A stretch of 64,000 nucleotides of DNA from Planctomycetota bacterium. Its GTDB lineage: Bacteria; Planctomycetota; J058. The stretch lies in NCBI GenBank assembly GCA_024711205.1, contig JANJTH010000829.1:3309-67308 (forward strand), in the 5' to 3' direction. The position numbers and the translations under genes are program-made. Below the pieces are notes generated by a model that ran no database searches, was not told the DNA's origin, and saw only the letters and a program-made list of their open reading frames with translations. How positions within the stretch are numbered: position 1 is the stretch's first letter; every line of letters starts with the position of its first letter. Shown here piece after piece: positions 11,151-33,501 of this stretch.

Positions 11151-11309
11151 TGGCTTCTCCTCTGCGACCGGTCGCTCTCGAGCGAGGTCACGCACTCTTG
11201 GACGAAGGGGCGGACCTGATCTTCAAGGGCCCTTCGTGGCCGTGCGGCCGGAGGCCGCCTTGCAGGCTGCGCCGCGGGGCATGGTCGTCCCATCCAACAT
11301 CACCGAGCG

Positions 11310-12203: not shown

Positions 12204-12274
12204 GCTCCAGCTCCGAAGAGATGGAGCATGGCAGGCCGGTCCGACATGGCCGGTCAGACGGCGCGTGTCGATCG

Positions 12275-12985: not shown

Positions 12986-13597
12986 ATGATCCACATCTTC
13001 ATCGGCGCGGGCATCGGAGCGTTCCTTGGCGCGGCGAGCGTCATCATCCTCGCCAAGGCCACCGGCAAGCCGATCAACTGGAAGAGCGTGGCGGCGAACG
13101 CGCTGGGCGGCGCGGTCGGCGGCGCGATCACCGCAGCCACCCTCGGTGCCGGCAGCGTCGCGAGCGTGGGTGTGGCGCGGACCGTCGGCGGCTTCGCGGC
13201 GGGCGGCTTCGGCGGCGGCGTGGCGCTCAAGACCAGCGACAACGCGATGGAGGGACGTCCCCTCACCGAGGACGTCCTCGAGACGGCCGTCGACTGCACG
13301 ATCACGAGCGTGGTGGCTGGCGGTGCGGGTAAGGCCCTCACGCCCCTGGCGCGCGCGGGTGGTGCGCGGATCGCCGCCACGAGCTGGGGCCGCGTCTTCA
13401 ACAAGGTCACGGGCAAGTTCGACGAGGGCGTGATGCTGCTCGCCGACAACGTCGACAACGTGAAGGACGCGACCGAGCTCGCCGAGGCCAAGGAGGAGGA
13501 GGGCGAGGAGCGCGCAGCGTCCCCTGCGCCCACTCTGCAGGTCGAGCAGCGTGCTCCTCAGCGCGGCATGGTCGACCTTCTTCCAGGGACGAAGTAG
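12986..13597 (+). CDS. Gly/Ala-rich hypothetical protein (glycine-zipper-like N-terminal region)
   Basis: 'MIHIFIGAGIGAFLGAASVIILAKA...GGAVGGAITAATLGAGS'. Codon usage fits this strand. Confidence 0.4.
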   Translation: MIHIFIGAGIGAFLGAASVIILAKATGKPINWKSVAANALGGAVGGAITAATLGAGSVASVGVARTVGGFAAGGFGGGVALKTSDNAMEGRPLTEDVLETAVDCTITSVVAGGAGKALTPLARAGGARIAATSWGRVFNKVTGKFDEGVMLLADNVDNVKDATELAEAKEEEGEERAASPAPTLQVEQRAPQRGMVDLLPGTK

Positions 13598-13674
13598 CCG
13601 CGGCCACGGCACCTGTGTCGGGGTCGAATCCTTGCCCCTAGCCAACGCAATCGACAACGGATAGAACACGGCCC

Positions 13675-14076: not shown

Positions 14077-14172
14077 CAAGCCCTCCGGGCCGACGCGTCG
14101 TCGTCTGCCCGGCGCCGGTGTCCACGGATCGCGGAACTCGTCCGCGGTCCAGGTCCCGCCCGGAGGGCTCTC

Positions 14173-16949: not shown

Positions 16950-16960
16950 CGGAGGCGCTC

Positions 16961-19900: not shown

Positions 19901-20179
19901 GCGGGCGCCGAGGTCCAGCGGCCGCTCGCCACGGTCGTGATCGGCGGCCTGTTCACATCGACGCTGCTGACGCTCCTCGTCCTGCCGTCGCTCGCCTCCG
20001 GCATGTCGCCGGACGGGTTGCCTTCGTCGGCGGTTCCCGCCCCAACTCACGAGCCGACGTCCCCGCCGGGAGAACCGAGCCACTCGGTCTCCCCGGCGTC
20101 CCCACCGGATTCCGCGGCTCCGTCGAGCCACCAAGACCCGCCCGCGGGGGAGTCATCCGCGGCCAAGGAGGATCTGTGA
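16961..20179 (+). CDS. czcA: Heavy-metal efflux RND transporter (CzcA family)
   Basis: 'MISGIVDASLNNRLLVLIGWLLVAVVGFGS...' 1072 aa. ATG lies 12 nt after the czcB stop, in frame with the longer track ORF. C-terminal tail is Pro/Ser-rich. Confidence 0.95.
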   Translation: MISGIVDASLNNRLLVLIGWLLVAVVGFGSLQSLPIDAVPDVTNVQVQVLTNSPGLAPEEVERFITFPVELSMSGLPALEEVRSVSKFGLSAVTVVFEEGTDIYWARQLIAERLVAAKEEIPEGYGEPEMGPISSGLGEVYQFEVRGEGKTPMELRTMLEWQITPRLRSVPGVVEVNAFGGELKSYQVTIDPNRLVSFGIPLSRVFEAIERNNRSVGGGYIEHEGEQYLVRGECLVESLPDLARVVVGKDDEGTPITIERLGKVELAPVIRQGAVTRDGDREAVVGIVMMLMGANSRTVSRDVHAKVEEIQRTLPEGVKIDTFYDRTELVDRTIHTVGKNLLEGGALVVLVLLLLLGNIRGGLIVAAAIPLSMLIAATAMRLAGLSGNLMSLGAIDFGLIVDGSVVMIENVVRYLAHHKDDRRPHMEKVRAACHEVARPVVFAVGIIAIVYLPILALRGIEGKMFKPMALTVVFALAGSLVCALTLMPVLASFALKRVAEHEPLLFRLAKRAYVPFLERTLRHPRLTPLIAVLAFIASLCLAPFLGAEFIPRLDEGAIALQIWRIPSISLEKSNQLSLDAEKVIKSFPEVKTVVSRTGRPEIATDPMGVEISDTYLILEPPDTWRFHDKNALVKEIDTALKARLPGVMFSYSQPIELRVSELISGVRSDVGIKVYGDDINGMKKVADQVAAVVGRVPGVVEAKAEQTTGLPYLRVRLRREALARLGIDAQDVLDVVETIGGKPVSTVVEGQQRFALQARFDPATRATLQALANLPVATPGGGMVPLGQLAELDVENGPAQISRERVSRRITIELNVRGRDLASTVAEAQAAVLRDVKLPPGWSVEWGGQFQNLQSASARLRILVPLALLLIFVLLYTTFNSMKLAALIFLNVPLAVTGGIFALALRGYPFSISAGVGFIALFGVAVLNGVVLLSYVVQRWADGLRGEEAAREAALARLRPVLMTALVASLGFVPMALATSAGAEVQRPLATVVIGGLFTSTLLTLLVLPSLASGMSPDGLPSSAVPAPTHEPTSPPGEPSHSVSPASPPDSAAPSSHQDPPAGESSAAKEDL

Positions 20180-20452: not shown

Positions 20453-20726
20453 CGCGTCACCTCAGCGCCGCGCCGCTCGCTTCGTCCCGATGACGTTCGT
20501 GGGCTGAACACCCACACGAGCTGCCCTGCCGTCGCACGTCCCGGCACGCCTGCCCGAGGTGCGCGAGCTGCCCATCCATGTACGCCCGGTCGCGGAGCGG
20601 CCGCGGCACCGGTCGTTCCACGCCCCGGCGGCCCGCGACGAGCCGCGACGGGCTGGTTGCGTTCAAGCGAGCTCGCCGATCGTCCTCGTGGGACGTCGGC
20701 GACGGAGCACAACACGGAGGTCCCCC

Positions 20727-22664
20727 GTGAACACCTCGAACGAGAGACCGTACTCCGCGGTGCGGCTGGTCACGCTCTTCTTTCTGGTCGCGTGGGGCGC
20801 GGTGCTGTTGAACGCCGGTCGCCTGCTGACCATGGTCGACGTCGAGGGTCCGCTGGCATGGGCGTGGGCGCTGGCGACCATCGTCACGTACGCCGCGACC
20901 TACCTCCTCCCCGTCGCCCTCCCGGCGCTCGGCATCGCGCTGCTCCTCGATCGCCGCGCCCCCGAGGCGAAGGGAGCGCGCGTGGTGGTCCTGTGCGGCG
21001 CAGCGATCCTCGTCGGCGCGATCCAGGTCGTGCTCTTCGCCGACGTGCTGATCTTCAGCGGGCACGGCTTCCACCTGAACGCCTTCGTGTGGAACATCCT
21101 TCGCACCCCGGGCGGTGTCGCGTCGCTCGGAGGCGGAGCCGCGACGGAGGCCGCCGCCGCGGCGATCTCCGTCGTGCTCCTGCTGCTCCACCTGGCCTTG
21201 GCTGGGCTGGTGTGGTTCGCGGTCAGGCGTCGGCCCACGGTTCTCGCGGCCGTCACCCTTCGGCGCGCCGGGGTGGTGCTCGTCGCCCTCGTCGTCCTGG
21301 GCCTGGCCGAACGCGTCGTGTACGGAGTGGCTGACCTGCGCGGGTACGAGCCGCTGACGTCGCTGCGCGGCCTCGTGCCGTTCTACAAGCCGATGACCAT
21401 GCGCGTCCTCGGACGAGCGCTCGGTCTCGAGGCCCCACGTCCACCGAGCCTGCGCGTCGGGAACCGCGAGCTGACGTATCCCCGCCGGCCCCTCGCCTTC
21501 GTCCCGACGCCGCCTCGGCACAACGTCGTGTGGCTCGTCGGGGAGTCCCTCCGCGCCGACATGATCGACCCGGAGATCATGCCCAACACCCACGCCTTCG
21601 CCCGGCGCGCCCAGTGGTTCCGCAACCACCAGAGCGGCGGCAACGGGACCCGGATGGGGATGTTCAGCATGTTCTATGGCCTGTACGGGGCCTACTGGTT
21701 CCCGTTCAAGGCAGCTCGCCGGCAGCCGCTCATCGTCGAGGAGGTGCTCGGCCGCGGCTACCGCGTCGAGGCCAGGACGAGCGCGCTGTTCAGCTACCCG
21801 GAGTTCGACGAGACGATCTGGGCCCAGTTCCCGCGCGAGCACATGCACACGCTGGAGAAGGAGGTCGCCACCGGCTGGGATCGCGACGCGGAGCACGTCA
21901 GGCGCATGCTCGAGTTCATCGACCAGGACCCCTCCAGGCCCTTCTTCACCTTCATGTTCTTCGAGTCCACGCACGCCGCGTACGGCTTCCCGCCCGAGAC
22001 GGCGATCCGAGAGCCCTACGCCGAGGACATCAACTACGCCACGATGGACATGAACGCCAACGCGGAGCCCATCAAGGCGCGCTACATCAACGCCGCTCAC
22101 TGGCTCGACATCGTGCTCGGGAGGCTCTTCGACCACCTGAAGGAGCGTGGCCTCCTCGACCGGACGATCGTCGTCGTGACGGGGGACCACGGCGAGGAGT
22201 TCTTCGAGCACGGCCGCTGGGGCCACAACTCGACGTTCTCGAAGGAGCAGATCTCGCCGCCCCTGATCCTGTGGCTCCCGGGCGCCGCACCCGCCGAGCG
22301 TCTCGACTTGTCGAGCCATCTCGACATCGCGCCCACCGTGCTGCGCGCGCTGGGGGCCAAGAACCCAACCGAGGACTTCTCGCTCGGCCTCGACCTGATG
22401 GGTCCCACGCGACGTCGCTTCAACGTGGTCTGCGACTGGTACGCGGTCGTCTACTCCGACGAGCACGACCGTGCGGTGTTCCAGCTCGACGGCATCGGAC
22501 GGCCGGACGTCTTCCACGACGACCAACCAGTCGCCGACCCTGGTCCGTTCCTCTCGACGCATCGAGACGATGTGTTTCAGATCATGAAAGACCTGCGCGT
22601 CTTCAACGACCCACGCCGTTCGCATCCGCCTCAGCCCATGGACCGCGAGAAGAAGGCCGAGTGA
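20727..22664 (+). CDS. Inner-membrane sulfatase-family protein, YejM/LapC(PbgA)-like: N-terminal multi-TM domain plus periplasmic sulfatase-like domain
   Basis: GTG start with a GGAGG ribosome-binding site 6 nt upstream. Five N-terminal TM helices. 'WLVGESLRADM', 'VVTGDHGEEF' and 'GRWGHNS' are sulfatase/alkaline-phosphatase superfamily motifs. Confidence 0.7.
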   Translation: MNTSNERPYSAVRLVTLFFLVAWGAVLLNAGRLLTMVDVEGPLAWAWALATIVTYAATYLLPVALPALGIALLLDRRAPEAKGARVVVLCGAAILVGAIQVVLFADVLIFSGHGFHLNAFVWNILRTPGGVASLGGGAATEAAAAAISVVLLLLHLALAGLVWFAVRRRPTVLAAVTLRRAGVVLVALVVLGLAERVVYGVADLRGYEPLTSLRGLVPFYKPMTMRVLGRALGLEAPRPPSLRVGNRELTYPRRPLAFVPTPPRHNVVWLVGESLRADMIDPEIMPNTHAFARRAQWFRNHQSGGNGTRMGMFSMFYGLYGAYWFPFKAARRQPLIVEEVLGRGYRVEARTSALFSYPEFDETIWAQFPREHMHTLEKEVATGWDRDAEHVRRMLEFIDQDPSRPFFTFMFFESTHAAYGFPPETAIREPYAEDINYATMDMNANAEPIKARYINAAHWLDIVLGRLFDHLKERGLLDRTIVVVTGDHGEEFFEHGRWGHNSTFSKEQISPPLILWLPGAAPAERLDLSSHLDIAPTVLRALGAKNPTEDFSLGLDLMGPTRRRFNVVCDWYAVVYSDEHDRAVFQLDGIGRPDVFHDDQPVADPGPFLSTHRDDVFQIMKDLRVFNDPRRSHPPQPMDREKKAE

Positions 22665-22668: not shown

Positions 22669-24846
22669 ATGACCACCCTTCGCTTCCGCATGCGCGGCAT
22701 GGACTGCGCCGAGGAGACCGCCGCCCTCCGCGATGAGGTCGGCCCCGTCGTCGGCGGCGCAGACCGGCTCGCCTTCGACGTGCTCGAGGGCATCATGACG
22801 GTGCGCATCGAGCCCGGCGCGCCGGTCACGGTGGAGTCGATCCTGGCGGCGGTCCAGAAGGCCGGCCTCGGCGCGACCCAGCTCTCCGACACGGCGGCGT
22901 CCGCACCCGACGAGGCGAGCCGGAACGGGCCCACGATCGCTGCAGCCGCGAGCGTGGGCCTGACGATCGCGGGCTTCGGCGCGCACGCGGTGGTCGCCGG
23001 AGACATGGCGGCGGCCTTCGGCTCCGAGGGCATGGGGACGGCCCACGCGGTCCCCATGCTCGCCCGGGCCGTCTACCTGGTCGCGATCCTGGTCGGCGCC
23101 TCGCACGTCGTGCCCAAGGCGCTCGGCGCCCTCCGTCGCCTGCGGCCGGACATGAACCTCCTCATGACCCTCGCGGTCCTCGGCGCGATCGTCCTCGGCG
23201 AGTGGCTCGAGGCCTCGGTCGTCAGCGCCCTCTTCGCGCTCTCGCTTGCGCTCGAGGCCTGGAGCGTCGGACGAGCGCGACGCGCGATCCGCGCGCTCAT
23301 GGACCTGAGCCCCCCGCAGGCGACCGTGCTCCGCGAGGGAGGAGCGGAGGAGTCCGTGGTCCCCACGGCCGTCGAGGTCGGAGACCGGGTCCTCGTTCGT
23401 CCCGCGGAGCGCATCCCCGTCGATGGCGAGGTGCTCGTCGGCACGAGCGCCGTGAACCAGGCGCCGATCACCGGCGAGAGCGTGCCCGTGCTGAAGGAGC
23501 CGGGCGCCGAGGTGTTCGCCGGCACGATCAACGGCGACGGCGTGCTCGAGGTGAAGTGCACCCGCGTCGCGAGCGACTCGACGCTCGCCAGGATCGTGCG
23601 CATGGTCGGCGAGGCCCAGTCGCGCCGGAGCCCGTCCGAGCGCTGGGTCGAGAAGTTCGCCCAGGTCTACACTCCTGTCGTCCTCGCGGCGGCGCTCCTA
23701 CTCGCCGTGGGCCCGCCGCTCGTCCTGGGGGCGCCATGGTCGGATTGGGTCTACCGCGGGCTCGTGCTGCTCGTGATCGGGTGTCCGTGCGCGCTCGTGA
23801 TCTCCACGCCCGTCAGCGTCGTCGCGGCGCTCGCCGCGGCCGCGAGCAACGGCGTCCTGGTCAAGGGCGGCGAGCACATCGAGACGCCGGCGAAGCTCGA
23901 GGCGATCGCCCTCGACAAGACGGGGACGATCACCGAGGGACGCCCCGAGGTCACATCGATCGAGGCCGTCACGGGCCACGACGAGCGCGAAGTCCTCGAG
24001 CTCGCCGCCGCGCTCGAGAGCCGCAGCGACCATCCTCTTGCCCAGGCGATCGTCCGGCATGCCAAGGAGCGCAACGTCGTTGTCGCCGCCGCCACCGACG
24101 TGAAGGCCATCCAGGGCAAGGGGCTCAGCGGCGCGGTCGACGGCCGGACCCACTGGCTCGGCTCGCACCGCTATCTGGAGGAGCGCAAGCAGGAGACGCC
24201 GGAGGTCCACGCGAAGCTGGAGGCGCTCTCGGCCGACGGCCACACGGTGGTCGTCGTGGGGACCGACGACCACGTGTGCGGCTTCGTGGCCATGGCCGAC
24301 CGTGTCCGCCCCGAGTCCGTCGCGGCCCTCAAGGCGTTGCGCGAGGCCGGCATCAAGCACCTGGTGCTCCTCACGGGCGACAACGCCGGGACGGCCCGCG
24401 CCGTCGCCAAGGTCGCGACGCTCGACGAGGTCCACGCCGAGCTCATGCCGGCCGACAAGGTGACCGCGATCGAGGGCCTCGTCGCGAAGTACGGCTTCGT
24501 GGCCATGGTGGGGGACGGGGTCAACGACGCCCCGGCGCTGGCCCGCGCCTCGCTCGGCATCGCGATGGGTGCGGCCGGCAGCGATGCCGCGATCGAGACC
24601 GCCGACGTGGCGCTCATGTCCGACGACCTCTCGAAGCTGCCCTGGCTGATCCACCACTCGCGTCGGACCGTCCGCACCATCCGCCAGAACGTCGTGTTTG
24701 CTCTGGGGGTCAAGGGCCTGTTCGTCGCCCTCACCCTCGCCGGCGTCGCGACCCTGTGGCTCGCGATCGCCGCCGACATGGGCGCGTCGCTGCTCGTGAT
24801 CGCCAACGGCCTCCGGCTCCTGCGTCGTGCGCATCCTGGTTCTTGA
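22669..24846 (+). CDS. Heavy-metal translocating P1B-type ATPase (Zn/Cd/Pb-type)
   Basis: N-terminal HMA-like 'RMRGMDCAEE' (a single Cys). 'CPC' in 'IGCPCALVIS'. 'DKTGTIT' phosphorylation site. '[10 protein letters not shown]' hinge. 'HP' motif in 'SDHPLA'. Confidence 0.95.
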   Translation: MTTLRFRMRGMDCAEETAALRDEVGPVVGGADRLAFDVLEGIMTVRIEPGAPVTVESILAAVQKAGLGATQLSDTAASAPDEASRNGPTIAAAASVGLTIAGFGAHAVVAGDMAAAFGSEGMGTAHAVPMLARAVYLVAILVGASHVVPKALGALRRLRPDMNLLMTLAVLGAIVLGEWLEASVVSALFALSLALEAWSVGRARRAIRALMDLSPPQATVLREGGAEESVVPTAVEVGDRVLVRPAERIPVDGEVLVGTSAVNQAPITGESVPVLKEPGAEVFAGTINGDGVLEVKCTRVASDSTLARIVRMVGEAQSRRSPSERWVEKFAQVYTPVVLAAALLLAVGPPLVLGAPWSDWVYRGLVLLVIGCPCALVISTPVSVVAALAAAASNGVLVKGGEHIETPAKLEAIALDKTGTITEGRPEVTSIEAVTGHDEREVLELAAALESRSDHPLAQAIVRHAKERNVVVAAATDVKAIQGKGLSGAVDGRTHWLGSHRYLEERKQETPEVHAKLEALSADGHTVVVVGTDDHVCGFVAMADRVRPESVAALKALREAGIKHLVLLTGDNAGTARAVAKVATLDEVHAELMPADKVTAIEGLVAKYGFVAMVGDGVNDAPALARASLGIAMGAAGSDAAIETADVALMSDDLSKLPWLIHHSRRTVRTIRQNVVFALGVKGLFVALTLAGVATLWLAIAADMGASLLVIANGLRLLRRAHPGS

Positions 24847-25558
24847 GGACGACCCGAGGGTCGCTCGGTTCCTTCAGCGAGGCCTGGAGGCCGAGCGTCA
24901 CATCGTGGACGTGCTCCGGACCCGTACGGACGCGCTCCAGCGCGTCACGAGCGGGGCCTTCGACCTCTTGATCCTGGACCTCGGGCTCTTTGGCCTCGAC
25001 GCGCATGACGTCCTGCAGGATCTGCGCCGCGACGGCGCCTCGGCTGGGATCATCGCGCTGGCCGGCAAGGACGCCCAGGAGGACCGAATCCGCGCCCTGG
25101 AAGTGGGCGCAGACGACTGCCTCCTGAGGCCGTTCAGCTTCGCGGAGCTCGTGGCCAGGATCCGAGCGCTCCAGCGCAGGCTCACGCACTCGTTCGAGCC
25201 GACGCTCCGGGCTGGCGACCTCGTGCTCGACCTCGTTCGACATCGAGTGACGGTGGCGGACCGACCGATCGAGCTGACGCCACGCGAGTACCAGCTTCTG
25301 AACTGCTTCGTTCGGCACCAGGGCGAGATCCTCAGTCGGCCTGTGCTGGCGGATCGCGTGTGGGGGATCGACTTCGACACCGGCACGAACGTCATCGATG
25401 TCTACGTGAACTGCCTGCGGAGGAAGCTGGCAGCCTCCCGGTGCCATTGCACGATCCAGACCGTGCGAGGCGTCGGCTACGCGTTCATGCCCGGATCCTC
25501 GCAGCCAGGGCAAGGTGTCGACCATGTTCGTCATCGCGGCCGACCTGAGAGAGATTGA
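24827..25558 (+). CDS. OmpR-family response regulator (CusR/CzcR-like), no cognate kinase in window
   Basis: GTG start 20 nt inside the ATPase 3' end. 'VRILVLEDDPRVARFL...LLILDLGL' receiver domain. Winged-helix C-terminus 'LTPREYQLL...VRGVGY'. Confidence 0.85.
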   Translation: MRILVLEDDPRVARFLQRGLEAERHIVDVLRTRTDALQRVTSGAFDLLILDLGLFGLDAHDVLQDLRRDGASAGIIALAGKDAQEDRIRALEVGADDCLLRPFSFAELVARIRALQRRLTHSFEPTLRAGDLVLDLVRHRVTVADRPIELTPREYQLLNCFVRHQGEILSRPVLADRVWGIDFDTGTNVIDVYVNCLRRKLAASRCHCTIQTVRGVGYAFMPGSSQPGQGVDHVRHRGRPERD

Positions 25559-25580: not shown

Positions 25581-25859
25581 ATGACCCCCACGCTGACCTT
25601 CGCCGCGCTCCTCGTCGTTCAGACCCTGCATCTCCTCCATCACCGACTGGCGAAGCGACACATCAGCTACGTCGAGGTCGGGGCGAGCGCCGCCCTGTGC
25701 ATCCCGCTCGACGCGCTCCCGGCCGCCCTGCTGTGCTCGATCCACCTGCTCTTCGCCGGCGTCCAGGTCGTCGGAAGCGTGTGGATCAAGCGGCTCTCAC
25801 CGGACTGGGCCAGCGCGAACGAGCAGGCCGCGGGGGCGAGGGGTCATGAAGGACGATAG
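25581..25859 (+). CDS. Small hypothetical membrane protein
   Basis: 92 aa with two or three hydrophobic helices. Confidence 0.3.
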   Translation: MTPTLTFAALLVVQTLHLLHHRLAKRHISYVEVGASAALCIPLDALPAALLCSIHLLFAGVQVVGSVWIKRLSPDWASANEQAAGARGHEGR

Positions 25860-26317: not shown

Positions 26318-26746
26318 GTGTCCCGCTTCAAGGTCATGCTCATCGCAGCGGCGCTCCTCCATCTTCTGATGGGGAGCGGCCTGTTGGTCCAGTGCGAACG
26401 GACCGACGGGCACAAGGGCGTCGAGCTCGGCCTGGTCGACTGCGAATGCTGCGGCCCCCCGACGTGCGCGGATCACGTCGCCTGCGGCGAGCAGACGAGC
26501 ACCGAGGCGGGGGCTGATGAGGCCTCGCAGAGCCTCTCGAAGTCCGAGGGTTGCGCCTGCGGCGACCATCCGTTGAGCGTGCTGGCTGCGAAGCCGGCGC
26601 GAGAGGGCGCACCGTCCCCGGCCGTCCTCCTCGAAGTCTCCGAGCCGATCGTGATGGAGCTCCCGCTGCTGGCGGTCGAGCTCTGGTTCCAGGCCGAGAT
26701 CCCGCGACCCCGGCCGCCTCGTTCGACCACCGTCTTCCGGTCCTAG
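26318..26746 (+). CDS. Small secreted Cys-rich protein upstream of an MFP-RND operon
   Basis: Hydrophobic N-terminus 'MLIAAALLHLLMGSGLLVQC'. Contains 'LVDCECCGPPTCADHVACGEQ' and 'EGCACGDHP'. Looks like the ORF at 50164. Confidence 0.4.
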   Translation: MSRFKVMLIAAALLHLLMGSGLLVQCERTDGHKGVELGLVDCECCGPPTCADHVACGEQTSTEAGADEASQSLSKSEGCACGDHPLSVLAAKPAREGAPSPAVLLEVSEPIVMELPLLAVELWFQAEIPRPRPPRSTTVFRS

Positions 26747-26824: not shown

Positions 26825-28600
26825 GTGACTGCTGAGCCCGCCCCGTCCCGTCGCACCCCCATCCAGAAGAAGACCGTCGCGCTCGGCGGCGTGCTCGTCG
26901 TCCTCCTCGCCGGCGTGGGCTGGCGAGTGGTCCACATGCAGCAAGGCGGGACCGCCGCAGGCGAGACGCCTGCACCAGCGCCCCCGGCTCCGTCCGGCAC
27001 TTGCGAGCACACGATCGCCCGCGCCGACTGCCCGTTCTGCACACCTTCGCTGATCGAGTCGAAGGGCTGGTGCGGCGGACACAACGTGCCCGAGGCGTTG
27101 TGCACGCGCTGCAACAAGGCCGTGATCCCCGCCTTCAAAGCCAAGGGCGACTGGTGCGGCGGTCATGACCTCCCGGAGTCGCAGTGCCTCAAGTGCAACC
27201 CGGACCTGGCCACCAAGGCCGCGGCCCCGCCCACACAGACAGCCACTGACTGGTGCAAGGAGCACGGGCTGCCGGAGTCGGACTGCTTCCTGTGCAGCCC
27301 GGACCTCGTCGAGAAGCGGGGCATGTGCTCCGAGCACGGCCTGCCGAACGCCCTGTGCACGACGTGCAAGCCCGCCCTCATCCCGGCCTTCAAGGCCGGC
27401 AACGACTGGTGCGAGGAGCACGCCGTCCCCGAGTCCCAGTGCGTGACCTGCAATCCGGCCCTCTCGCGGTCGGCGGAGCCCGAGCTCCCGCCGGGTCCGG
27501 GGGTCGTGAACCGGCTGCATCGCGCACCGGCGGTCCGCTGCATGACCCACCTGCGCCGCATCCAGCTCCAGCCAGGCGTCGAGCGCGAGGTCGGGATCGA
27601 GACCGTCGAGGTCCAGCGCGCGCCGTTCAAGGACGTCCTCGCCTGCAACGCGGAGACGATCCACGCCGCCGATCGCTACGCCCACCTCTCGTCGCGCGTG
27701 GCCGGCGTCGTCCGCGAGGTCCGGACCGACCTCGGTCGGACCGTGAAGCAGGGCGACGTCCTGGTGGTCGTCGACACGCCCGAGCTGCGCGACGCCAAGG
27801 CCGAGTACGCGCAGGCCGTCGAGCTCGCCGCGCTCTGGGAGCGAAATCACGCACGCGAGGTCGAGCTCTCCGGAGGCGGGCTCGCGACGCGGCGACAGCT
27901 CGTGGAGGCGGACACCCGGCGCGTCGAGACGAAGGCCGCGCTCGCGCGCTCCACGCAGCGTCTGCTCGGCCTTGGGCTCGACCCCACCGAGCTGGACCGA
28001 GACGACGGGCTCGCGATCCGCGCGCCCTTCGACGGGACGATCGTCAAGCGGGACGTGGTCCAGGGCGAGGTCGTGGCGCCTGGCGAGTCGCTCCTCGCCC
28101 TCGCCGACACCAGGACCGTGTGGGCCATGATCGACGTGCGCGAGGACGACGTCGCGCGCGTCCACTCCGGCCAGGCGCTGGTGCTCCAGGTCGACGCCCT
28201 CCGCGGCGAGGCGTTCGCGGGAGAGATCACGTGGGTCGACGGCGAGGTCGACCGCCGCACGCGCACCGTGAAGGCGCGCGCGGTGATCGACAACGCGGCC
28301 GGGCTCCTGCGCGCGAACCTCTTCGGCAAGGCCGTGGTCACCCTCGCCGACCGCTCGAACGCCCTCGTGGTCCCGCGCGACGCCGTGCAGTGGGAGGGCT
28401 GCTGCAACCTCGTCTTCGTCCGCCGCGGCGAGGGGACCTACGAACCACGGAAGGTGCGCCTCGGAGGCACGGCCGAACGGCTGGTCGAGGTCGTCGAGGG
28501 TCTGCACGCGGGGGAGCCGATCGCCTCGATCGGGAGCTTCGTCCTCAAGACGGAGATCCTGAAGGGCAGCATCGGCGCCGGCTGCTGCGAGGGCGAGTGA
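26825..28600 (+). CDS. HME-RND membrane fusion protein with an N-terminal array of six Cys3His 'WCxxHxLPExxCxxCNP' repeats
   Basis: GTG start with a GGAGGA ribosome-binding site. One TM helix, then the repeats 'WCGGHNVPEALCTRCN', 'WCGGHDLPESQCLKCNP', 'WCKEHGLPESDCFLCSP', 'CSEHGLPNALCTTCKP', 'WCEEHAVPESQCVTCNP', plus a degenerate first unit. A canonical MFP core follows. Ends 'GAGCCEGE'. Confidence 0.9.
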   Translation: MTAEPAPSRRTPIQKKTVALGGVLVVLLAGVGWRVVHMQQGGTAAGETPAPAPPAPSGTCEHTIARADCPFCTPSLIESKGWCGGHNVPEALCTRCNKAVIPAFKAKGDWCGGHDLPESQCLKCNPDLATKAAAPPTQTATDWCKEHGLPESDCFLCSPDLVEKRGMCSEHGLPNALCTTCKPALIPAFKAGNDWCEEHAVPESQCVTCNPALSRSAEPELPPGPGVVNRLHRAPAVRCMTHLRRIQLQPGVEREVGIETVEVQRAPFKDVLACNAETIHAADRYAHLSSRVAGVVREVRTDLGRTVKQGDVLVVVDTPELRDAKAEYAQAVELAALWERNHAREVELSGGGLATRRQLVEADTRRVETKAALARSTQRLLGLGLDPTELDRDDGLAIRAPFDGTIVKRDVVQGEVVAPGESLLALADTRTVWAMIDVREDDVARVHSGQALVLQVDALRGEAFAGEITWVDGEVDRRTRTVKARAVIDNAAGLLRANLFGKAVVTLADRSNALVVPRDAVQWEGCCNLVFVRRGEGTYEPRKVRLGGTAERLVEVVEGLHAGEPIASIGSFVLKTEILKGSIGAGCCEGE

Positions 28601-31600
28601 GCTCCTCGAGTCCGGACCAGGCCAGGGACGAGGACGAGGGCGGCGTCCTCTCCTGGATCATCGACCTGTGCCTCGCCCATCGCGTCGTCGTGCTCATCGC
28701 CGCGGCGCTGCTCGCCGCGGTGGGCGCCTACGCCCTGCAGCGCCTGCCCCTCGACGCCTTCCCCGACACCACGCCCGTCCAGGTCACCGTCAACACGGTC
28801 GCCCCGACGCTCTCGCCGCTCGAGGTCGAGCGGCAGATCACGCTTCCCGTCGAGCAGGTCTTGAACGGGCTGCCGGGCATCCACGAGGCCCGCTCGATCT
28901 CGAAGTTCGGCCTCTCGCAGGTCACGCTCATCTTCGAGGACGACGTCGGCATCTACCTGGCCCGGCAGGTCGTCTCCGAACGGCTCGCGAGCGTCCAGCT
29001 CCCGGACGGCATCGAGCGCCCGACCTTGGGCCCCGTCTCGACCGGCCTGGGCGAGGTCTTCCACTACCTCGTCACCGGAGACGGCAAGAAGAGCCTCTCC
29101 GAGCTACGCACGGTGCACGACTGGGTGATTCGCCCCCCGCTGAGCGCGGTCCCCGGCGTGGCCGAGATCAACGCCTGGGGCGGCGAGGAGCGCCAGCTCC
29201 AGGTCGTCGTCGACCCGGACCTCCTGATCAAGCACGACCTGCGGCCCGACGACGTCGTGCAGGCCCTCCGCCGCAACAACACGAGCGTCGGCGGCGGCGT
29301 GCTCACGCAGGCCGGTGAGGCGACGCTCGTCCAGGGGCTCGGGCTCGCCGCGACCCAGGACGACCTGCGCGACGTGGTGATCGCCGCGCACCAGGGCGTG
29401 CCCATCCGCGTCCGAGACGTGGCCCGCGTCGAGGACGGCCACGAGGTCCGGCGCGGCGCCGTGACGGCGGACGGCAAGGGCGAGGCGGTGCTCGGCCTGG
29501 GCTTCATGCTCATGGGTGAGAACAGCCGCGTCGTCACGCTGCGCCTCGCCGAGCGGCTGGAGGAGGTCAAGAAGACCCTCCCGCCCGGCGTCCACGTCGA
29601 GCCCGTCTACTCGCGCACGAGCCTCGTCGACCACGTGCTCGAGACGGTCCGCAAGAACTTGCTCGAGGGCGCGCTCCTCGTCATCGCCGTCCTGTTCGCG
29701 TTCCTCGGCAACCTCCGCGCCGGGCTGATCGTCGCGCTCGCGATCCCGCTGTCGATGCTGTGCGCCTTCGACCTCATGCTGCGCTTCGGGATCGCCGGCA
29801 GCCTCATGAGCCTCGGCGCCATCGACTTCGGCCTGGTCGTCGACAGCTCCGTGATCATGGTCGAGAACGCCGCGCGCCGGCTCGGCGAGGACCGGAGCGA
29901 GCGCAGCGTGCGCGAGGTCGTGCGCGACGCGGCCATCGAGGTCCGCCGCCCGACGCTCTTCGGCGAGCTCATCATCATGATCGTCTACCTGCCGATCCTG
30001 ACCCTCGAGGGCGTCGAGGGGAAGCTCTTCCGGCCCATGGCGCTCACCGTGATCTTCGCGCTGATCGGCTCCATGGTCCTCTCGCTGACCGTCATGCCTG
30101 TGCTCGCGAGCCTGGCGCTGAAGCGCGGGTCAGCTGGCCACGACGACAACTTCGTGGTCCGGGCCCTGAAGTGGCTCTATCGCCCGGTCGTCGCCGGCGC
30201 GCTGCGCTGGCCGGTCGTCGTCCTCGTAGGCGCCGTCCTGGCTGTGATCGGCGGCGGCGTGCTTGCCTCGCGGCTGGGCTCCGAGTTCGTGCCTCGCCTC
30301 CGCGAGGGCGCGATCGTCGTCAACACCGTGCGCCTCGCGAGCGTGTCTCTCGAAGAGAGCGTGCGCTACGGGACGCGGATCGAACTCCTCCTGCGCGAGC
30401 GCTTCCCCGACGAGGTCGAGCGCGTCTGGACGCGCACCGGCACGGCCGAGGTCGCCACGGACCCCATGGGCCTCGAGCTCTCCGACGTGTTCGTCACGCT
30501 GACGCCGCGTGAGCGCTGGACCAAGGCCAGCACGCAGGACGAGCTCGTCGTCGCCATGAGCGAGGTCGTGCGCCGGCTCCCCGGCATGAAGGCGATCTTC
30601 ACGCAGCCGATCGAGATGCGCGTGAACGAGATGATCGCGGGCGTCCGGGCAGACCTCGGCATCAAGCTCTTCGGCGACGACCTGGAGGTCTTGAAGGCCA
30701 AGGCCGCCGAGATCCAGACGGTCGTCCAGGCGCTCCCGGGAGCGGCCGACGTCTCGGCCGAGCAGGTCACGGGCCTGCCCGTGCTGCAGGTGACGGTCGA
30801 TCGCCCGGCGATCTCGCGCTACGGCATCACCGTCGACGACGTCCTCGACGCCGTCGCCATGCTCGGGACCAAGCAGGTCGGCGAGGTGAAGGAGGGCGCG
30901 CGTCGCTTCGACCTCGTCGTCCGGCTCGACGACCGCTTCCGCGTCGACCCCGACGCCGTCGGCTCCATCCTCATCCCGACGCCGGACGGCCAGCGCATCC
31001 CGCTCTCGAGGCTGGCCCGGGTCGAGGTCATCGAGGGCCCATCCACGATCCAACACGAGTGGGGCAAGCGCCGGATCGTCGTCCAGGCGAACGTCCGCGG
31101 CCGCGACATCAGCTCCTTCGTCGCCGACGTGCAGCGCGCGCTCGAGGAGAAGGTCCCGCTCCCCGCCGGCTACCGGGTCGACTTCGGCGGACAGTTCGAG
31201 CACCTCGTCGCAGCGCGGCAACGCCTGCTGGTCGTCGTCCCGCTGGCGCTGGCCCTGGTCCTGACGCTGCTCTACGTCACGTACGGCCGCGTGCTGGACG
31301 CGCTGCGCGTCTTCACCGGCGTGCCCTTCGCCGCCGTGGGCGGCGTGCTCGCGCTCTGGCTGCGCGACCTGCCGTTCAGCATCTCGGCGGCCGTCGGCTT
31401 CATCGCGCTGTGCGGCGTCTCGGTGCTGGGCGACATGGTCCTCGTCTCGACGATCCGCCAGCTCCTCGCGACGGGCATGCCCATCGACGACGCGATCCGT
31501 AAGGCCGCCGAGACGCGCCTACGTCCGGTCCTCATGACCGCTCTCGTGGCCGCCCTCGGGTTCCTGCCCATGGCCCTCAACACGGGCATCGGCGCCGAGG

Positions 31601-31740
31601 TCCAGCGGCCGCTCGCGACCGTCGTCATCGGGGGAGTCGCGTCCTCGACGCTGCTCACGCTCGTCGTCCTCCCCGTCCTCTACTCCGTGATGCGCCCGCG
31701 CAGCGGGCCCGGCTCATCGACCACCACTCGCATCGACTGA
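28597..31740 (+). CDS. Heavy-metal efflux RND transporter (HME family)
   Basis: Candidate GTG start overlapping the MFP stop (GTGA), but the start is uncertain. Conserved region begins 'LSWIIDLCLAHRVVVLIAAALLAAVGAYALQRLPLDAFPDTTPVQV'. About 1040 aa. Confidence 0.9.
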   Translation: MSSSSPDQARDEDEGGVLSWIIDLCLAHRVVVLIAAALLAAVGAYALQRLPLDAFPDTTPVQVTVNTVAPTLSPLEVERQITLPVEQVLNGLPGIHEARSISKFGLSQVTLIFEDDVGIYLARQVVSERLASVQLPDGIERPTLGPVSTGLGEVFHYLVTGDGKKSLSELRTVHDWVIRPPLSAVPGVAEINAWGGEERQLQVVVDPDLLIKHDLRPDDVVQALRRNNTSVGGGVLTQAGEATLVQGLGLAATQDDLRDVVIAAHQGVPIRVRDVARVEDGHEVRRGAVTADGKGEAVLGLGFMLMGENSRVVTLRLAERLEEVKKTLPPGVHVEPVYSRTSLVDHVLETVRKNLLEGALLVIAVLFAFLGNLRAGLIVALAIPLSMLCAFDLMLRFGIAGSLMSLGAIDFGLVVDSSVIMVENAARRLGEDRSERSVREVVRDAAIEVRRPTLFGELIIMIVYLPILTLEGVEGKLFRPMALTVIFALIGSMVLSLTVMPVLASLALKRGSAGHDDNFVVRALKWLYRPVVAGALRWPVVVLVGAVLAVIGGGVLASRLGSEFVPRLREGAIVVNTVRLASVSLEESVRYGTRIELLLRERFPDEVERVWTRTGTAEVATDPMGLELSDVFVTLTPRERWTKASTQDELVVAMSEVVRRLPGMKAIFTQPIEMRVNEMIAGVRADLGIKLFGDDLEVLKAKAAEIQTVVQALPGAADVSAEQVTGLPVLQVTVDRPAISRYGITVDDVLDAVAMLGTKQVGEVKEGARRFDLVVRLDDRFRVDPDAVGSILIPTPDGQRIPLSRLARVEVIEGPSTIQHEWGKRRIVVQANVRGRDISSFVADVQRALEEKVPLPAGYRVDFGGQFEHLVAARQRLLVVVPLALALVLTLLYVTYGRVLDALRVFTGVPFAAVGGVLALWLRDLPFSISAAVGFIALCGVSVLGDMVLVSTIRQLLATGMPIDDAIRKAAETRLRPVLMTALVAALGFLPMALNTGIGAEVQRPLATVVIGGVASSTLLTLVVLPVLYSVMRPRSGPGSSTTTRID

Positions 31741-31750
31741 AGGAGCTCTC

Positions 31751-32098
31751 ATGACTCGTCTCTTCGCCTCCGGCCTCGTCCTGTGCGCCTCGCTCGTCCT
31801 CGGCGGCTGCCCGAACTCTCAGGCGCCCGCGACGCCCCCGCCCGCGCCGGCTCCGACGGCTCCCGCGCCCACGACGGCGCCGGCCCCCGCGACCGGTGAG
31901 CACGGCACCGCGGCCAACGACTGGTGCGGCGGCCACGGCGTGCCCGAGTCGATCTGCACCCGCTGCAACGAGTCTCTGATCGCCGGCTTCAAGGAGAAGA
32001 AGGACTGGTGCGCCGAGCACAACCTCCCCGAGTCGCAGTGCCTCACCTGCAATCCGGAGCTCAAGGCCAAGTTCGAGGCCATGGCTCCGAAGCGGTAG
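31751..32098 (+). CDS. Stand-alone lipoprotein made of two copies of the WCxxHxLPESxCxxCNP repeat (putative periplasmic metal-binding module)
   Basis: Lipobox 'LVLGGCPNS'. Pro/Ala linker. Then 'DWCGGHGVPESICTRCNESLIAGFKEKKDWCAEHNLPESQCLTCNPELKAKF'. Lies 10 nt after the RND stop. Confidence 0.7.
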   Translation: MTRLFASGLVLCASLVLGGCPNSQAPATPPPAPAPTAPAPTTAPAPATGEHGTAANDWCGGHGVPESICTRCNESLIAGFKEKKDWCAEHNLPESQCLTCNPELKAKFEAMAPKR

Positions 32099-32241
32099 AT
32101 GATCGCCGCGACGAGCGCTCGCCTGCGAGCGCTCGTCGTCGCGTCTCCTTCGTCGAGCAAGCTCAGCGGTGCGACGCCTGCCACTGTAGGGGCGGCCAGG
32201 ATAGAACGCCTGAACGACGATGTGACCGAGGCAGCCAGGCG

Positions 32242-33501
32242 ATGGACACGGCGGGTCAAGCGGGCGGCGCGAGTGTGACTCCTGCCCCTCACCAGCTGCC
32301 AGCAGTTCCGACTCGTGCGCGTGGTTCCGCGCTCGAGGTCCTCGGCGTGTTCACGAAGCTCGGGCTCACGTCGTTTGGCGGTCCGATCGCGCACCTCTCC
32401 TACTTCCAGGCCGAGCTCGTCGAGCGGCGGCGCTGGGTCGATCAGGAGACCTACGCGGACCTGGTCGCGCTGTGCCAGTTCCTGCCCGGGCCGGCGAGCA
32501 GCCAGGTCGCCATGGCGATCGGGATCGAGCGGGCCGGCCTCCTCGGCGGCCTCGCCGCCTGGGTCGGGTTCACCCTCCCTTCCGCGCTCGCACTCACCCT
32601 CTTCGCCCTCGGCCTCGGCACGTTCGCCACCCAGGGCGATGCGGGTTGGATCCACGGACTCAAGGTCGTGGCCGTCCCGATCGTGGGGCTCGCGATCCAT
32701 GGCATGGCGGAGAAGCTCTGTCCCGACCGTCGACGCGCGACGATCGCCGTCGCCGCGGCGCTCATCGCCATGGTCTTCGAGGCCGCCCTCGCGCAGGTCG
32801 GGATCATCCTCGGCGCGGGGCTGGTCGGCTGGGCGCTCTACCGCGACGAGCCCCGCTCCGCCGTCCATGACGCTCCCGCGCCTCTCTCGCCCTGGCAGGG
32901 AGTCGTCGCCTGGGTCGTCTTCTTTGCCCTGCTCCTCGGCCTCCCGCTCCTCAGCGCGGCGATCCGACATCCTGGCGTCGACGTCTTCGAGCGCTTCTAC
33001 CGCGTGGGCGCGCTCGTGTTCGGCGGGGGACACGTCGTCCTGCCGCTCCTCGAGCGCGAGGTCGTCGACCCGGGCTGGACCACGAGCGACCGGTTTCTCG
33101 CGGGCTACGGCGCCGCGCAGGCTGTCCCTGGCCCGCTCTTCTCGTTCGCGGCGTACCTGGGGTTCATCCTCGACACGACCCCGACCCGCTGGGCTGGCGC
33201 TGCGCTCGCGCTCGTGGCGATCTTCCTCCCCTCGTATCTGCTCGTCGTGGGCGCGCTGCCGTTCTGGTCACGGCTCCGGGGCTCACCCGCGTGCCAGGCA
33301 GCGCTGCGCGGGACGAACGCCTCCGTCGTGGGTCTGCTCCTCGCTGCCTTCTACGACCCGGTGTGGCGGGTGGCGATCCACTCGCGAGCGGACTTTGGCC
33401 TCGCCCTCGGGGCGTTCCTCGCCCTCGCCGTGTGGAAGCTTCCGCCCTGGCTCGTCGTGATGCTGACCGCGTTCGCCAGCGCGCTCGTTCCGAAGCCCTG
33501 A
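32242..33501 (+). CDS. chrA: Chromate ion transporter (CHR family)
   Basis: 'LEVLGVFTKLGLTSFGGPIAHLSYFQAELVERRRWVDQETYADLVALCQFLPGPASSQ' and a second half 'VGALVFGGGHVVLPLLE'. This duplicated CHR fold is typical of ChrA. Confidence 0.85.
   Translation: MDTAGQAGGASVTPAPHQLPAVPTRARGSALEVLGVFTKLGLTSFGGPIAHLSYFQAELVERRRWVDQETYADLVALCQFLPGPASSQVAMAIGIERAGLLGGLAAWVGFTLPSALALTLFALGLGTFATQGDAGWIHGLKVVAVPIVGLAIHGMAEKLCPDRRRATIAVAAALIAMVFEAALAQVGIILGAGLVGWALYRDEPRSAVHDAPAPLSPWQGVVAWVVFFALLLGLPLLSAAIRHPGVDVFERFYRVGALVFGGGHVVLPLLEREVVDPGWTTSDRFLAGYGAAQAVPGPLFSFAAYLGFILDTTPTRWAGAALALVAIFLPSYLLVVGALPFWSRLRGSPACQAALRGTNASVVGLLLAAFYDPVWRVAIHSRADFGLALGAFLALAVWKLPPWLVVMLTAFASALVPKP

What the first reader, a model, noticed from the sequence alone, without database searches (positions are those of the whole stretch)
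26825..32098. Tandem 'WCxxHxLPESxCxxCNP' Cys3His repeat module in an MFP N-terminus and as a stand-alone lipoprotein, in an MFP-RND pair with no cognate outer-membrane factor
The membrane fusion protein at 26825 carries a ~170-aa periplasmic N-terminal extension of six ~25-30-aa repeats between its TM anchor and the MFP core. Each repeat has an invariant W-C-x2-H-x-(L/V)-P-E-x2-C-x2-C-(N/S/K)-P pattern, which amounts to a CxxH knuckle plus a CxxC knuckle, a mini zinc-ribbon-like Cys3His site.

Immediately after the partner RND gene, a 115-aa lipoprotein (31751..32098) consists of nothing but a Pro/Ala linker and two further copies of the same repeat. This looks like a detachable version of the same module.

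The repeat differs from the known HMBD (CPMHP...CPxCGM, seen in cusB here) and from YHS/TRASH. I do not recognise it as a named domain. A repeated soft-ligand site positioned at the substrate-entry side of an HME pump suggests a metal-capture or relay array, perhaps for Zn, Cu(I) or Cd. This operon also lacks its own OMF gene.
Basis: seen in the sequence. Interest (0 to 1): 0.8.

Follow-up and report, generated by a model that had tools for sequence, protein, structure and literature searches.

The report
Unnamed cysteine-histidine metal module on zinc-type efflux pumps
A small, unnamed cysteine/histidine repeat, almost certainly a metal-binding mini-finger, sits on the periplasmic adaptor of a zinc/cadmium-type efflux pump and on a partner lipoprotein, and it belongs to a widespread family found only with such pumps.

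Summary
The adaptor (MFP, 26825-28600) carries five strict C-x2-H-x6-C-x2-C motifs and one C-x-H variant. The lipoprotein (31751-32098) carries two more. No other copy occurs in the window.

The unit is not six equal repeats. It is a triad (motif spacing 23 and 28 residues) present twice in the MFP, and the lipoprotein holds a dyad.

No Pfam, NCBIfam or PDB entry covers it. AlphaFold models are confident, yet match no solved fold.

The family has about 775 clusters at 50% identity, across Planctomycetota, Myxococcota, Acidobacteriota and other phyla. In all 80 genomic loci examined, the module is fused to, or encoded next to, an adaptor followed by a heavy-metal RND gene.

Partner pumps are ZneA/CzcA-like, not CusA-like. 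Partner adaptors end in a conserved IGAGCC tail where unrelated neighbouring adaptors end in histidines.

Rare changes at the four ligand positions are mostly Cys/His/Asp swaps, and export is by the Sec route. Both point to metal sites loaded in the periplasm, not disulfides.

My best reading is a thiolate-based capture, hand-off or switch module for Zn/Cd-type cations. That function is inferred, not shown. The missing outer-membrane gene is the usual state for this family.

The parts
26825..28600 (+). Membrane fusion protein / periplasmic adaptor, 591 aa, with N-terminal module array
   Evidence: Pfam HlyD_D23 at aa 283-500. NCBIfam RND_mfp at 159.6 bits, above its cutoff. Best PDB hit is ZneB at 102 bits. 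GC3 is 0.92.
26873..26932 (+). N-terminal transmembrane anchor (aa 17-36, TVALGGVLVVLLAGVGWRVV)
   Evidence: Read from the sequence. No Tat-like motif was found in 53 fused family members.
27002..27196 (+). Triad 1: three Cys3His motifs (aa 60-72 C-x-H variant, aa 82-96, aa 110-124)
   Evidence: Regex. Spacing 23/28 matches the family pattern. AlphaFold pLDDT is 91-96 over this stretch.
27251..27451 (+). Triad 2: three Cys3His motifs (aa 143-157, 167-181, 195-209)
   Evidence: Regex. Spacing is 24/28. AlphaFold pLDDT is 87-95.
28388..28408 (+). QWEGCCN vicinal-cysteine motif in the C-terminal part of the adaptor core (aa 522-528), probably the membrane-proximal domain
   Evidence: Present in 29 of 77 module-linked adaptors. 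The domain assignment is inferred from its position in the sequence.
28571..28597 (+). C-terminal IGAGCCEGE tail of the adaptor (aa 583-591)
   Evidence: A GxGC tail occurs in 66 of 67 module-bearing adaptors and in 10 of 10 plain adaptors next to stand-alone modules. Five unrelated flanking adaptors lack it, and four of them end in histidines, e.g. GHGHSH, AGHAH.
28597..31740 (+). HME-RND transporter, ZneA/CzcA-like, about 1047 aa
   Evidence: TIGR00914 at 1190 bits. ZneA scores 670 bits against CusA at 611. The start overlaps the MFP stop by 4 nt.
29824..29868 (+). TMH4 signature DFGLVVDSSVIMVEN (aa 410-424)
   Evidence: DFGxxxDSSxxx[VIT]EN occurs in 60 of 76 RND ORFs scored in the module loci. 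CusA has AVGAMVDAAIVMIEN at the same place.
31751..32098 (+). Lipoprotein, 115 aa: signal peptide with lipobox (C20), Pro/Ala linker, one dyad of the module
   Evidence: The exact protein is on public contigs. About 130 close homologues of 97-118 aa exist. GC3 is 0.92.
31922..32095 (+). Dyad domain (motifs at aa 58-72 and 86-100) plus conserved LKAKFEAMAPK tail
   Evidence: AlphaFold pLDDT is 87-96 for aa 60-110. Alignment A2 shows invariant W, C, H, P, E, C, TRCN, DWC, H, P, S, C, C.
26318..26746 (+). Possible accessory: small secreted Cys/His-rich ORF (142 aa) 79 nt upstream of the adaptor gene
   Evidence: No Pfam match. Analogous Cys-rich small ORFs sit upstream of related operons in L088, L003, L090 and L091. 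Homology among them was not demonstrated.

Best explanation
The repeat is a periplasmic, membrane-tethered metal-binding mini-finger. Each motif of about 25 residues offers one Cys3His site: a CxxH knuckle, then a CxxC at the start of a helix. Motifs pack into dyad or triad domains.

The module belongs to a distinct subclass of ZneA/CzcA-like divalent-cation RND pumps. It sits on flexible linkers at the membrane-proximal end of the adaptor, or on a separate lipoprotein of the same operon.

I propose it binds soft or borderline divalent cations (Zn2+, Cd2+, perhaps Co2+ or Pb2+) in the periplasm. It would then either pass the metal to the adaptor's cysteine tail (IGAGCC) and on to the pump, or fold on metal binding and switch the pump on. 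This parallels what CusF and the CusB N-terminus do for Cu(I)/Ag(I).

Shown here: the motif, its conservation, its exclusive linkage to these pumps, the pump type, Sec export, and the ligand-like substitution pattern. Inferred: metal binding itself, the identity of the metal, and the hand-off or switch step.
For: 1. Exclusive association. In 80 of 80 genome loci found through the module alone, it is fused to, or directly upstream of, an adaptor followed by an HME-RND gene. Of 143 new cluster representatives, 71 are adaptor fusions and 71 are short proteins. The remaining one (P0144) is an adaptor fragment.
2. Ligand behaviour. About 1,950 motif instances keep C/H/C/C. Of 25 distinct variant motifs, 20 carry another metal ligand at the changed position. 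His to Cys occurs in at least 3 lineages and Cys3 to Asp in at least 4. His to Asp, Cys1 to Asp and Cys4 to His also occur.
3. Sec export. No Tat-like signal occurs in 53 fused or 306 stand-alone members, and lipoboxes are common. Any metal must therefore be acquired in the periplasm.
4. Matched chemistry in the partner. The IGAGCC tail is present in 66 of 67 module-bearing adaptors and in 10 of 10 plain adaptors beside stand-alone modules. Four of five unrelated flanking adaptors end in histidines instead.
5. Pump class. ZneA scores above CusA and ZneB above CusB. The DFG...DSS...VEN motif is present. The CusA Met-triad positions hold N/L/E.
6. Same-window contrast. The CusA-type pump (M/M/M at the triad) carries HMBD modules instead.
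7. Variable dose. Copy number ranges from 2 to 15, and several homologues have His-rich linkers in front of the module.
8. Operon partners. P1B ATPases, CDF transporters and ArsR regulators are neighbours. One plasmid (pK2D_1) adds a lipoprotein thioredoxin and a periplasmic HMA protein.
9. Precedent. The CusF to CusB to CusA relay and CusB metal-induced activation are described in PMC8277102 and PMC13328181.
Against: - No metal-binding measurement exists for any member.
- A tetrahedral Cys3His site in a 25-residue unit with little hydrophobic core is the classic signature of a structural zinc site. Such sites bind very tightly and exchange slowly, which does not suit a relay.
- I could not read the model coordinates, so the convergence of the four ligands on one point is not verified.
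- The partner RND has no conserved cysteine, so a thiolate relay would stop at the adaptor.
- Very high conservation of non-ligand residues in the dyad lipoprotein fits a protein-docking role as well as a chaperone role.
- Thioredoxin neighbours are found in only 5 of 80 loci.
Confidence: 0.55

Rival explanations
1. Structural zinc only. The Cys3His sites hold a permanent zinc ion that merely folds the small domains. The domains would then act as a protein-protein docking or scaffolding element, for example recruiting the lipoprotein to the adaptor/RND or organising the adaptor hexamer, with no role in handling the substrate.
For: The ligand set and the tiny units are typical of structural zinc fingers. 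The dyad lipoprotein family is highly conserved at non-ligand positions, including the LKAKFEAMAPK tail. The models are compact and high-confidence. The partner RND has no conserved cysteines.
Against: Copy number varies from 2 to 15, and the module is freely fused, split or inserted. That is unusual for a fixed docking element. The module co-varies with a cysteine tail that replaces the histidine tail in the adaptor. Some members have His-rich linkers. Sec export means the fold depends on periplasmic metal supply.
Confidence: 0.25
2. Periplasmic metal sponge. The arrays sequester toxic soft metals at the membrane as a buffer and do not feed or regulate the pump.
For: Sites are multiplied up to 15 per protein. 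Stand-alone multi-copy lipoproteins of about 215 aa exist. His-rich linkers are present in some members.
Against: A buffer would not need strict gene-by-gene linkage to one adaptor/RND subclass, yet linkage is 80 of 80. It would also not need the matched IGAGCC tail. Stoichiometric capacity is small compared with a pump.
Confidence: 0.1
3. Disulfide-knotted or redox-active cysteine domain. The cysteines form disulfides in the oxidising periplasm, or act as a thiol-redox sensor. An Fe-S (3Cys-1His) cluster is a related idea.
For: The location is periplasmic. The CxxC lies at a helix N-terminus. A thioredoxin lipoprotein is encoded in one related operon.
Against: Each motif has three cysteines, an odd number, plus a near-invariant histidine. 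Substitutions are Cys to Asp, His to Cys and Cys to His, not paired losses. No Tat signal is present, so no cytoplasmic cofactor insertion and hence no Fe-S cluster.
Confidence: 0.05

Closest known systems
HMBD (Pfam PF19335), the CPMHP...CPxCGM 'heavy metal binding domain' of CusB-like adaptors and P1B ATPases
   Same: Same ligand order: Cys-x2-His ... Cys-x2-Cys in a unit of about 25-28 residues. Same places in heavy-metal adaptors: after the membrane anchor, or inserted near the C-terminal end of the beta-barrel. Compare HMBD copy 2 in window MFP 52119-53861 with the triad inserted in P0150. HMBD also occurs as stand-alone multi-copy small proteins.
   Different: The His-to-Cys spacing is 6, not 10. 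The conserved non-ligand residues differ (W-C..H.(L/V)PE..C..CNP). The new module is organised in dyads and triads. It is linked to ZneA/CzcA-type pumps rather than CusA-type pumps. The Pfam model does not match the window proteins, and only 9 of 81 relatives match weakly (best E 0.0018, below threshold). hhalign aligns only the CxxC half.
CusF periplasmic metallochaperone and the CusB N-terminal metal site (E. coli CusCFBA)
   Same: A periplasmic metal-binding element at the adaptor N-terminus, plus a separate small protein encoded in the same operon. The established role is metal delivery to, and activation of, an HME-RND pump (PMC8277102, PMC13328181).
   Different: CusF and CusB use Met/His/Trp ligands for Cu(I)/Ag(I). 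No sequence match exists. Here the ligands are thiolates, the units are repeated, and the pump is of the divalent-cation type.
ZneB/ZneA and CzcB/CzcA (Cupriavidus metallidurans divalent-cation pumps)
   Same: The adaptor core and the RND are homologous to these. ZneB and ZneA are the best solved-structure hits. ZneB also takes part in metal binding, through its beta-barrel domain (PMC8277102).
   Different: The ZneB chain in the PDB aligns only with MFP residues 289-567, so nothing in it corresponds to the Cys3His array. Whether native ZneB or CzcB has any such array or IGAGCC tail was not checked against their full sequences. From my own recollection CzcB has histidine-rich stretches instead. 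The TMH4 motif here is DSS rather than the DGA I recall for CzcA.
MerP and other periplasmic HMA proteins
   Same: They show that reduced cysteine thiolates can bind soft metals in the periplasm (established knowledge). A periplasmic HMA protein is encoded beside a module-bearing operon on plasmid pK2D_1.
   Different: HMA is a ferredoxin-like fold with one GMxCxxC site. There is no sequence or predicted-fold similarity.

Membership tests
HMBD (PF19335) | Match to the Pfam model at or above the gathering score (23.6 bits) | tested here: not met
   No HMBD hit for the window MFP or lipoprotein at E<=1. Among 81 relatives, 9 match weakly, best E 0.0018. The window's CusB-like MFP scores 138 bits as a positive control.
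HMBD (PF19335) | Ligand order CxxH...CxxC with about 10 residues between His and Cys, and the CPMHP / CPxCGM signatures | tested here: inconclusive
   The ligand order is the same. The spacing is 6, not 10, and the signatures are absent. hhalign aligns only 12-15 columns around the CxxC, with probability 35-78%.
CusF-type metallochaperone | CusF-like sequence family with Met/His/Trp Cu(I) site | tested here: not met
HMA / MerP-like (PF00403) | Ferredoxin-like domain with GMxCxxC | tested here: not met
   No Pfam match at E<=1.
YHS / TRASH and named zinc-ribbon families | Significant match to any Pfam zinc-ribbon, TRASH or YHS model, or to a solved zinc-ribbon fold | tested here: not met
RND membrane fusion protein (adaptor) | Barrel-sandwich, beta-barrel and C-terminal domains matching HlyD_D23 / TIGR01730 | tested here: met
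   HlyD_D23 at 134.5 bits. TIGR01730 at 159.6 bits, cutoff 94.9.
HME-RND, divalent-cation (ZneA/CzcA) type | TIGR00914 membership, TMH4 DFG...D...EN, and absence of the CusA Met triad | tested here: met
   TIGR00914 at 1190 bits. TMH4 is DFGLVVDSSVIMVEN. N576/L628/E678 sit at the CusA M573/M623/M672 positions. ZneA is the best PDB hit.
Bacterial lipoprotein | Signal peptide ending in a lipobox [LVI][ASTVI][GAS]C | tested here: met
   MTRLFASGLVLCASLVLGG-C20. The cysteine is nearly invariant in 63 homologues. Lipid modification itself cannot be tested here.
Metal-binding site (any) | Measured metal stoichiometry and affinity; four ligands converging in a structure | not testable with these tools
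The indirect support is the ligand-substitution pattern.

The most novel reading that the evidence does not exclude
The module, the IGAGCC adaptor tail and the 'DSS' RND signature together define a previously unrecognised thiolate-based periplasmic metal-handling route for a whole subclass of divalent-cation RND pumps. In this route, Sec-exported Cys3His mini-fingers fold only when they bind periplasmic Zn or Cd. They would thereby both sense the metal and deliver it to the pump. This would be a new fold and a new class of periplasmic metallochaperone or switch, the divalent-cation counterpart of CusF/CusB.
Probability: 0.35. Interest if true: 0.75.

Novelty: new variant of a known kind. Interest (0 to 1): 0.62.

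Why it matters
It is still debated how Zn, Cd and Co reach CzcCBA-type pumps from the periplasm, and whether dedicated periplasmic chaperones exist for them as CusF does for copper.

This family offers a concrete candidate that is widespread and easy to express. The dyad is only about 60 residues. The family shows clear genetic linkage, a predicted new fold and a matched cysteine tail on the adaptor.

It also deserves a name in the domain databases. Today the fused proteins are annotated only as generic adaptor subunits, and the lipoproteins seen here are annotated as 'hypothetical protein'. Metal-resistance surveys of Planctomycetota, Myxococcota and Acidobacteriota therefore miss it.

Tried and rejected
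- Pfam, NCBIfam and PDB sequence searches of the module found nothing significant.
- Eight literature searches and three papers read (two reviews of tripartite pumps and their adaptors among them) gave no description of the motif. PmcY is an unrelated Asp-based zinc protein. The paper that cites PF19335 describes a copper chaperone with an MXCXXC motif and a ferredoxin-like fold, so it says nothing about this module.
- Heme c was rejected because there is no CxxCH motif.
- An Fe-S cluster was rejected because no Tat signal exists anywhere in the family.
- Cu(I)/Ag(I) as pump substrate was rejected because the CusA Met triad is absent.
- The idea that the missing OMF gene is meaningful was rejected because most related loci lack an adjacent OMF and the window holds three OMF genes.
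- A conserved cysteine relay inside the RND was rejected because the partner RNDs have no conserved Cys.
- The promoter/terminator scan found nothing, which is uninformative at 70% GC.
- Homology among the small Cys-rich upstream ORFs could not be shown by phmmer.
- The weak Ish1 (PF10281) hits in two homologues were judged to be compositional. Each has zero significant stretches.
Full report
**The observation**

The window is about 70% G+C. The ORF at 26825-28600 encodes a 591-aa adaptor (MFP). The next ORF, 28597-31740, overlaps it by 4 nt and encodes an RND transporter. Ten nucleotides further on, 31751-32098 encodes a 115-aa lipoprotein.

A regex for C..H.{6}C..C finds five copies in the MFP (aa 83, 111, 144, 168, 196) and two in the lipoprotein (aa 59, 87). 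None occurs elsewhere in the six frames of the window. A sixth, N-terminal MFP copy has C-x-H spacing (C60, H62, C69, C72).

The four ligand positions, however, are conserved.

**The real unit**

In 95 six-copy homologues, the motif starts are spaced 23, 28, a variable 30-46, then 23, 28. The window MFP shows 23, 28, 33, 24, 28. The domain is therefore a triad of three distinct motif types:
- a CPFC type;
- an EALC...(I/L)xAFKAxGD type;
- a WC..H.LPESQC..CNP type.

The triad is present twice in the MFP. The lipoprotein is a dyad of types 2 and 3. Among 143 new cluster representatives, three copies is the commonest number.

**Is it a known domain?**

- Pfam-A and NCBIfam cover only the adaptor core (aa 281-575) and nothing in the lipoprotein.
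- Scanning 81 relatives against Pfam gave only sub-threshold scatter: zf-C6H2, B-box, and HMBD in 9 of 81 with best E 0.0018.
- No PDB sequence matches.
- AlphaFold2 with family alignments gave confident models. Mean pLDDT is 87.8 for MFP aa 54-222, and 87-96 for the dyad at aa 60-110.
- Each motif shows a short beta-bridge at the CxxH, a turn at 'ES', and the CxxC at the start of a helix.
- Eight literature searches and two reviews, one of tripartite pumps and one of their adaptors, do not mention the module.
- RefSeq (PGAP) annotates a fused protein as 'efflux RND transporter periplasmic adaptor subunit'. A GenBank plasmid record annotates a dyad lipoprotein as 'hypothetical protein'.

**Family and context**

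- A word-indexed search found 1,897 relatives.
- A profile search of 1.84 billion cluster representatives found 775 at E<=0.001.
- A pattern scan of species-representative genomes gave at least 577 confirmed loci. They come from Planctomycetota (mostly Phycisphaerae), Myxococcota, Acidobacteriota, Rokubacteria, Zixibacteria, Ignavibacteria, Calditrichota, Desulfuromonadales, some Gammaproteobacteria and Ca. Uabimicrobium.

These loci were selected through the module alone. In all 80 fetched loci, the module is in, or immediately upstream of, an adaptor gene followed by an HME-RND gene. The architectures split as follows:
- 49 fused only;
- 21 fused plus a stand-alone copy;
- 9 stand-alone next to a plain adaptor;
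- 1 stand-alone with no adjoining plain adaptor scored.

Copies per locus range from 2 to 15.

Every protein of 300 aa or more among the new representatives is an adaptor. One of them, P0150, carries a triad inserted inside the adaptor core, in the loop that corresponds to window MFP residue ~489.

The window's lipoprotein belongs to a tightly conserved group of 97-118 aa proteins with an LKAKFEAMAPK tail. In other genomes this protein also sits right after the RND gene, followed by a CDF or P1B-ATPase gene.

Only about a quarter of the loci have an adjacent OMF gene. The window itself holds three OMF genes in its other RND operons. The missing OMF is therefore unremarkable.

**Which pump?**

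- The RND scores best against ZneA (670 bits, against 611 for CusA). The adaptor scores best against ZneB (102 bits, against 45 for CusB).
- TMH4 reads DFGLVVDSSVIMVEN. DFGxxxDSSxxx[VIT]EN is present in 60 of 76 RND ORFs scored in the module loci.
- At the CusA methionine-triad positions, the window RND has N576/L628/E678. N and E are invariant in 64 partner RNDs.
- The fourth RND of the window (53862-57398) has M/M/M at those positions, and its adaptor carries three HMBD copies.

The same genome therefore pairs HMBD with a Cu/Ag-type pump and the new module with a divalent-cation-type pump. JGI's automatic names agree: 'cobalt-zinc-cadmium' for the new module and 'Cu(I)/Ag(I)' for HMBD.

**Evidence for metal sites rather than disulfides**

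- Across about 1,950 motif instances the four positions are nearly invariant.
- Of 25 distinct variant motifs, 20 replace a ligand with another metal ligand. These are His to Cys, Cys3 to Asp, His to Asp, Cys1 to Asp and Cys4 to His, several of them in independent lineages.
- Each motif has an odd number of cysteines.
- No member has a Tat-like signal, and lipoboxes or TM anchors are the rule. The protein is therefore exported unfolded, and any metal must be picked up in the periplasm. This also excludes an Fe-S cofactor.
- Some homologues have His-rich linkers ahead of the first motif.

**An unexpected correlate**

Module-linked adaptors end in IGAGCC(E/D). This holds for 66 of 67 fused adaptors and for 10 of 10 plain adaptors next to stand-alone modules. 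The five unrelated adaptors in the same flanks lack it, and four of them end in histidines, for example GHGHSH and AGHAH.

A subset, including the window MFP (aa 522-528), also has QWEGCCN in the C-terminal part of the core. The partner RNDs have no conserved cysteine.

On plasmid pK2D_1 the operon also encodes two small Cys-rich proteins, a periplasmic HMA protein, CadA, a lipoprotein thioredoxin and CzcD. Across the 80 loci, thioredoxin (5), P1B ATPase (10) and ArsR-like (15) neighbours occur but are not universal.

**Interpretation**

The best-supported reading is a periplasmic thiolate-rich metal-binding module dedicated to a subclass of Zn/Cd/Co-type RND pumps. It would act in capture and hand-off to the adaptor's cysteine tail, or as a metal-dependent folding switch. 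The precedent is CusF and the CusB N-terminus (PMC8277102, PMC13328181). I give this 0.55.

The main rival, at 0.25, is that the metal is purely structural and the domains serve docking. Cys3His in a 25-residue unit is typical of structural zinc, and the lipoprotein's non-ligand surface is very conserved. Against this rival stand the free fusion, splitting and insertion of the module, the 2-15 copy range, the matched cysteine tail, and the dependence on periplasmic metal.

A pump-independent sponge (0.1) and a disulfide or redox domain (0.05) are less likely.

**Relation to HMBD**

HMBD has the same ligand order, the same positions in adaptors and the same stand-alone multi-copy forms. But it has a 10-residue spacer and different signatures, and the Pfam model does not reach threshold. 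hhalign aligns only the CxxC half, with probability 35-78%. Common ancestry is possible but not demonstrated, so I treat HMBD as the closest analogue, not the family.

**Verdict**

This is a real, conserved and currently unnamed domain family. The concept is known: an accessory metal module on heavy-metal adaptors. The sequence family is new and the predicted fold matches no solved structure, so I rate it a new variant of a known kind.

It is worth experimental follow-up because it gives a testable candidate for periplasmic substrate acquisition by Czc/Zne-type pumps.

Limits of this work: no metal-binding data exist, the model coordinates could not be inspected, and the 80 loci are the best-scoring subset of at least 577.

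Noticed in passing
window 28571-28597 and 28388-28408; MFP ORFs of L006-L085: Module-linked adaptors end in a conserved IGAGCC(E/D) tail. Four of the five unrelated adaptors in the same flanks end in histidines instead (e.g. GHGHSH, AGHAH). A subset, including the window MFP, also has QWEGCCN in the C-terminal part of the core. I could not find this Cys-for-His tail switch described anywhere.
   Followed up: partly
window 26318-26746 (+); also L088 2444-2800, L003 5917-6408, L090 3791-4162, L091 3630-4043: A small secreted Cys/His-rich ORF (118-163 aa, no Pfam match) lies just upstream of the adaptor or OMF gene in the window and in several related czc-like operons. The sequences are too divergent for phmmer to link them, so homology is unproven.
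   Followed up: partly
window 29824-29868; RND ORFs of L006-L085: Partner RND transporters share a TMH4 signature DFGxxxDSSxxx[VIT]EN (60 of 76). They also have invariant N and E at the CusA M573 and M672 positions. This suggests a distinct HME-RND subclass.
   Followed up: partly
protein P0150 (aa 332-435); window 52119-53861: One homologue has a triad plus one extra motif inserted inside the adaptor core, in the loop corresponding to window MFP residue ~489. The window's CusB-like adaptor has an HMBD copy inserted close by in the sequence, plus N- and C-terminal HMBD copies and a His-rich linker.
   Followed up: partly
window 4421-10814, 14077-20179, 22669-24846, 32200-33501, 50707-57398: The window is a metal-resistance island. 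It holds four RND systems, three of them with OMF genes, a CPC-motif P1B ATPase, a ChrA chromate transporter and a LysR regulator. The fourth RND is a true CusA type, with the Met triad conserved.
   Followed up: partly
L091 (plasmid pK2D_1, CP036351.1) 2048-13646: A planctomycete plasmid operon reads: czcC, Cys-rich ORF, czcB with module, czcA, dyad lipoprotein, Cys-rich lipoprotein, periplasmic HMA protein, cadA, lipoprotein thioredoxin (WCQPC), czcD. This looks like a complete thiol-based periplasmic metal-handling set.
   Followed up: partly
L033 7195-7854; proteins P0156, P0167, P0174: Several homologues carry His-rich stretches (e.g. HDHEHAG...HEHSHGH) in the linker just before the first Cys3His motif.
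   Followed up: no
window 20559-22664 (+): A 701-aa membrane protein with DUF3413 and sulfatase domains sits between an RND operon and the P1B ATPase. Its role here is unknown.
   Followed up: no
window 24827-25558 and 25581-25859 (+): An OmpR-type response regulator gene overlaps the end of the ATPase gene, and I saw no histidine kinase next to it. It is followed by a 92-aa hydrophobic ORF with no family match.
   Followed up: no
L028-L033, L048, L079-L083 versus window 31751-32098: Dyad lipoproteins fall into at least three subtypes. One is upstream, of the 'PGSHEDWC...IERPP' type. One is a Myxococcaceae 'CEHGV.K.LC...AKKGVK' type. The third is the downstream 'LKAKFEAMAPK' type seen in the window. 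The window pairs a 2-triad adaptor like those of the Polyangiales loci with the downstream lipoprotein type, whose named relatives are mostly planctomycete.
   Followed up: partly
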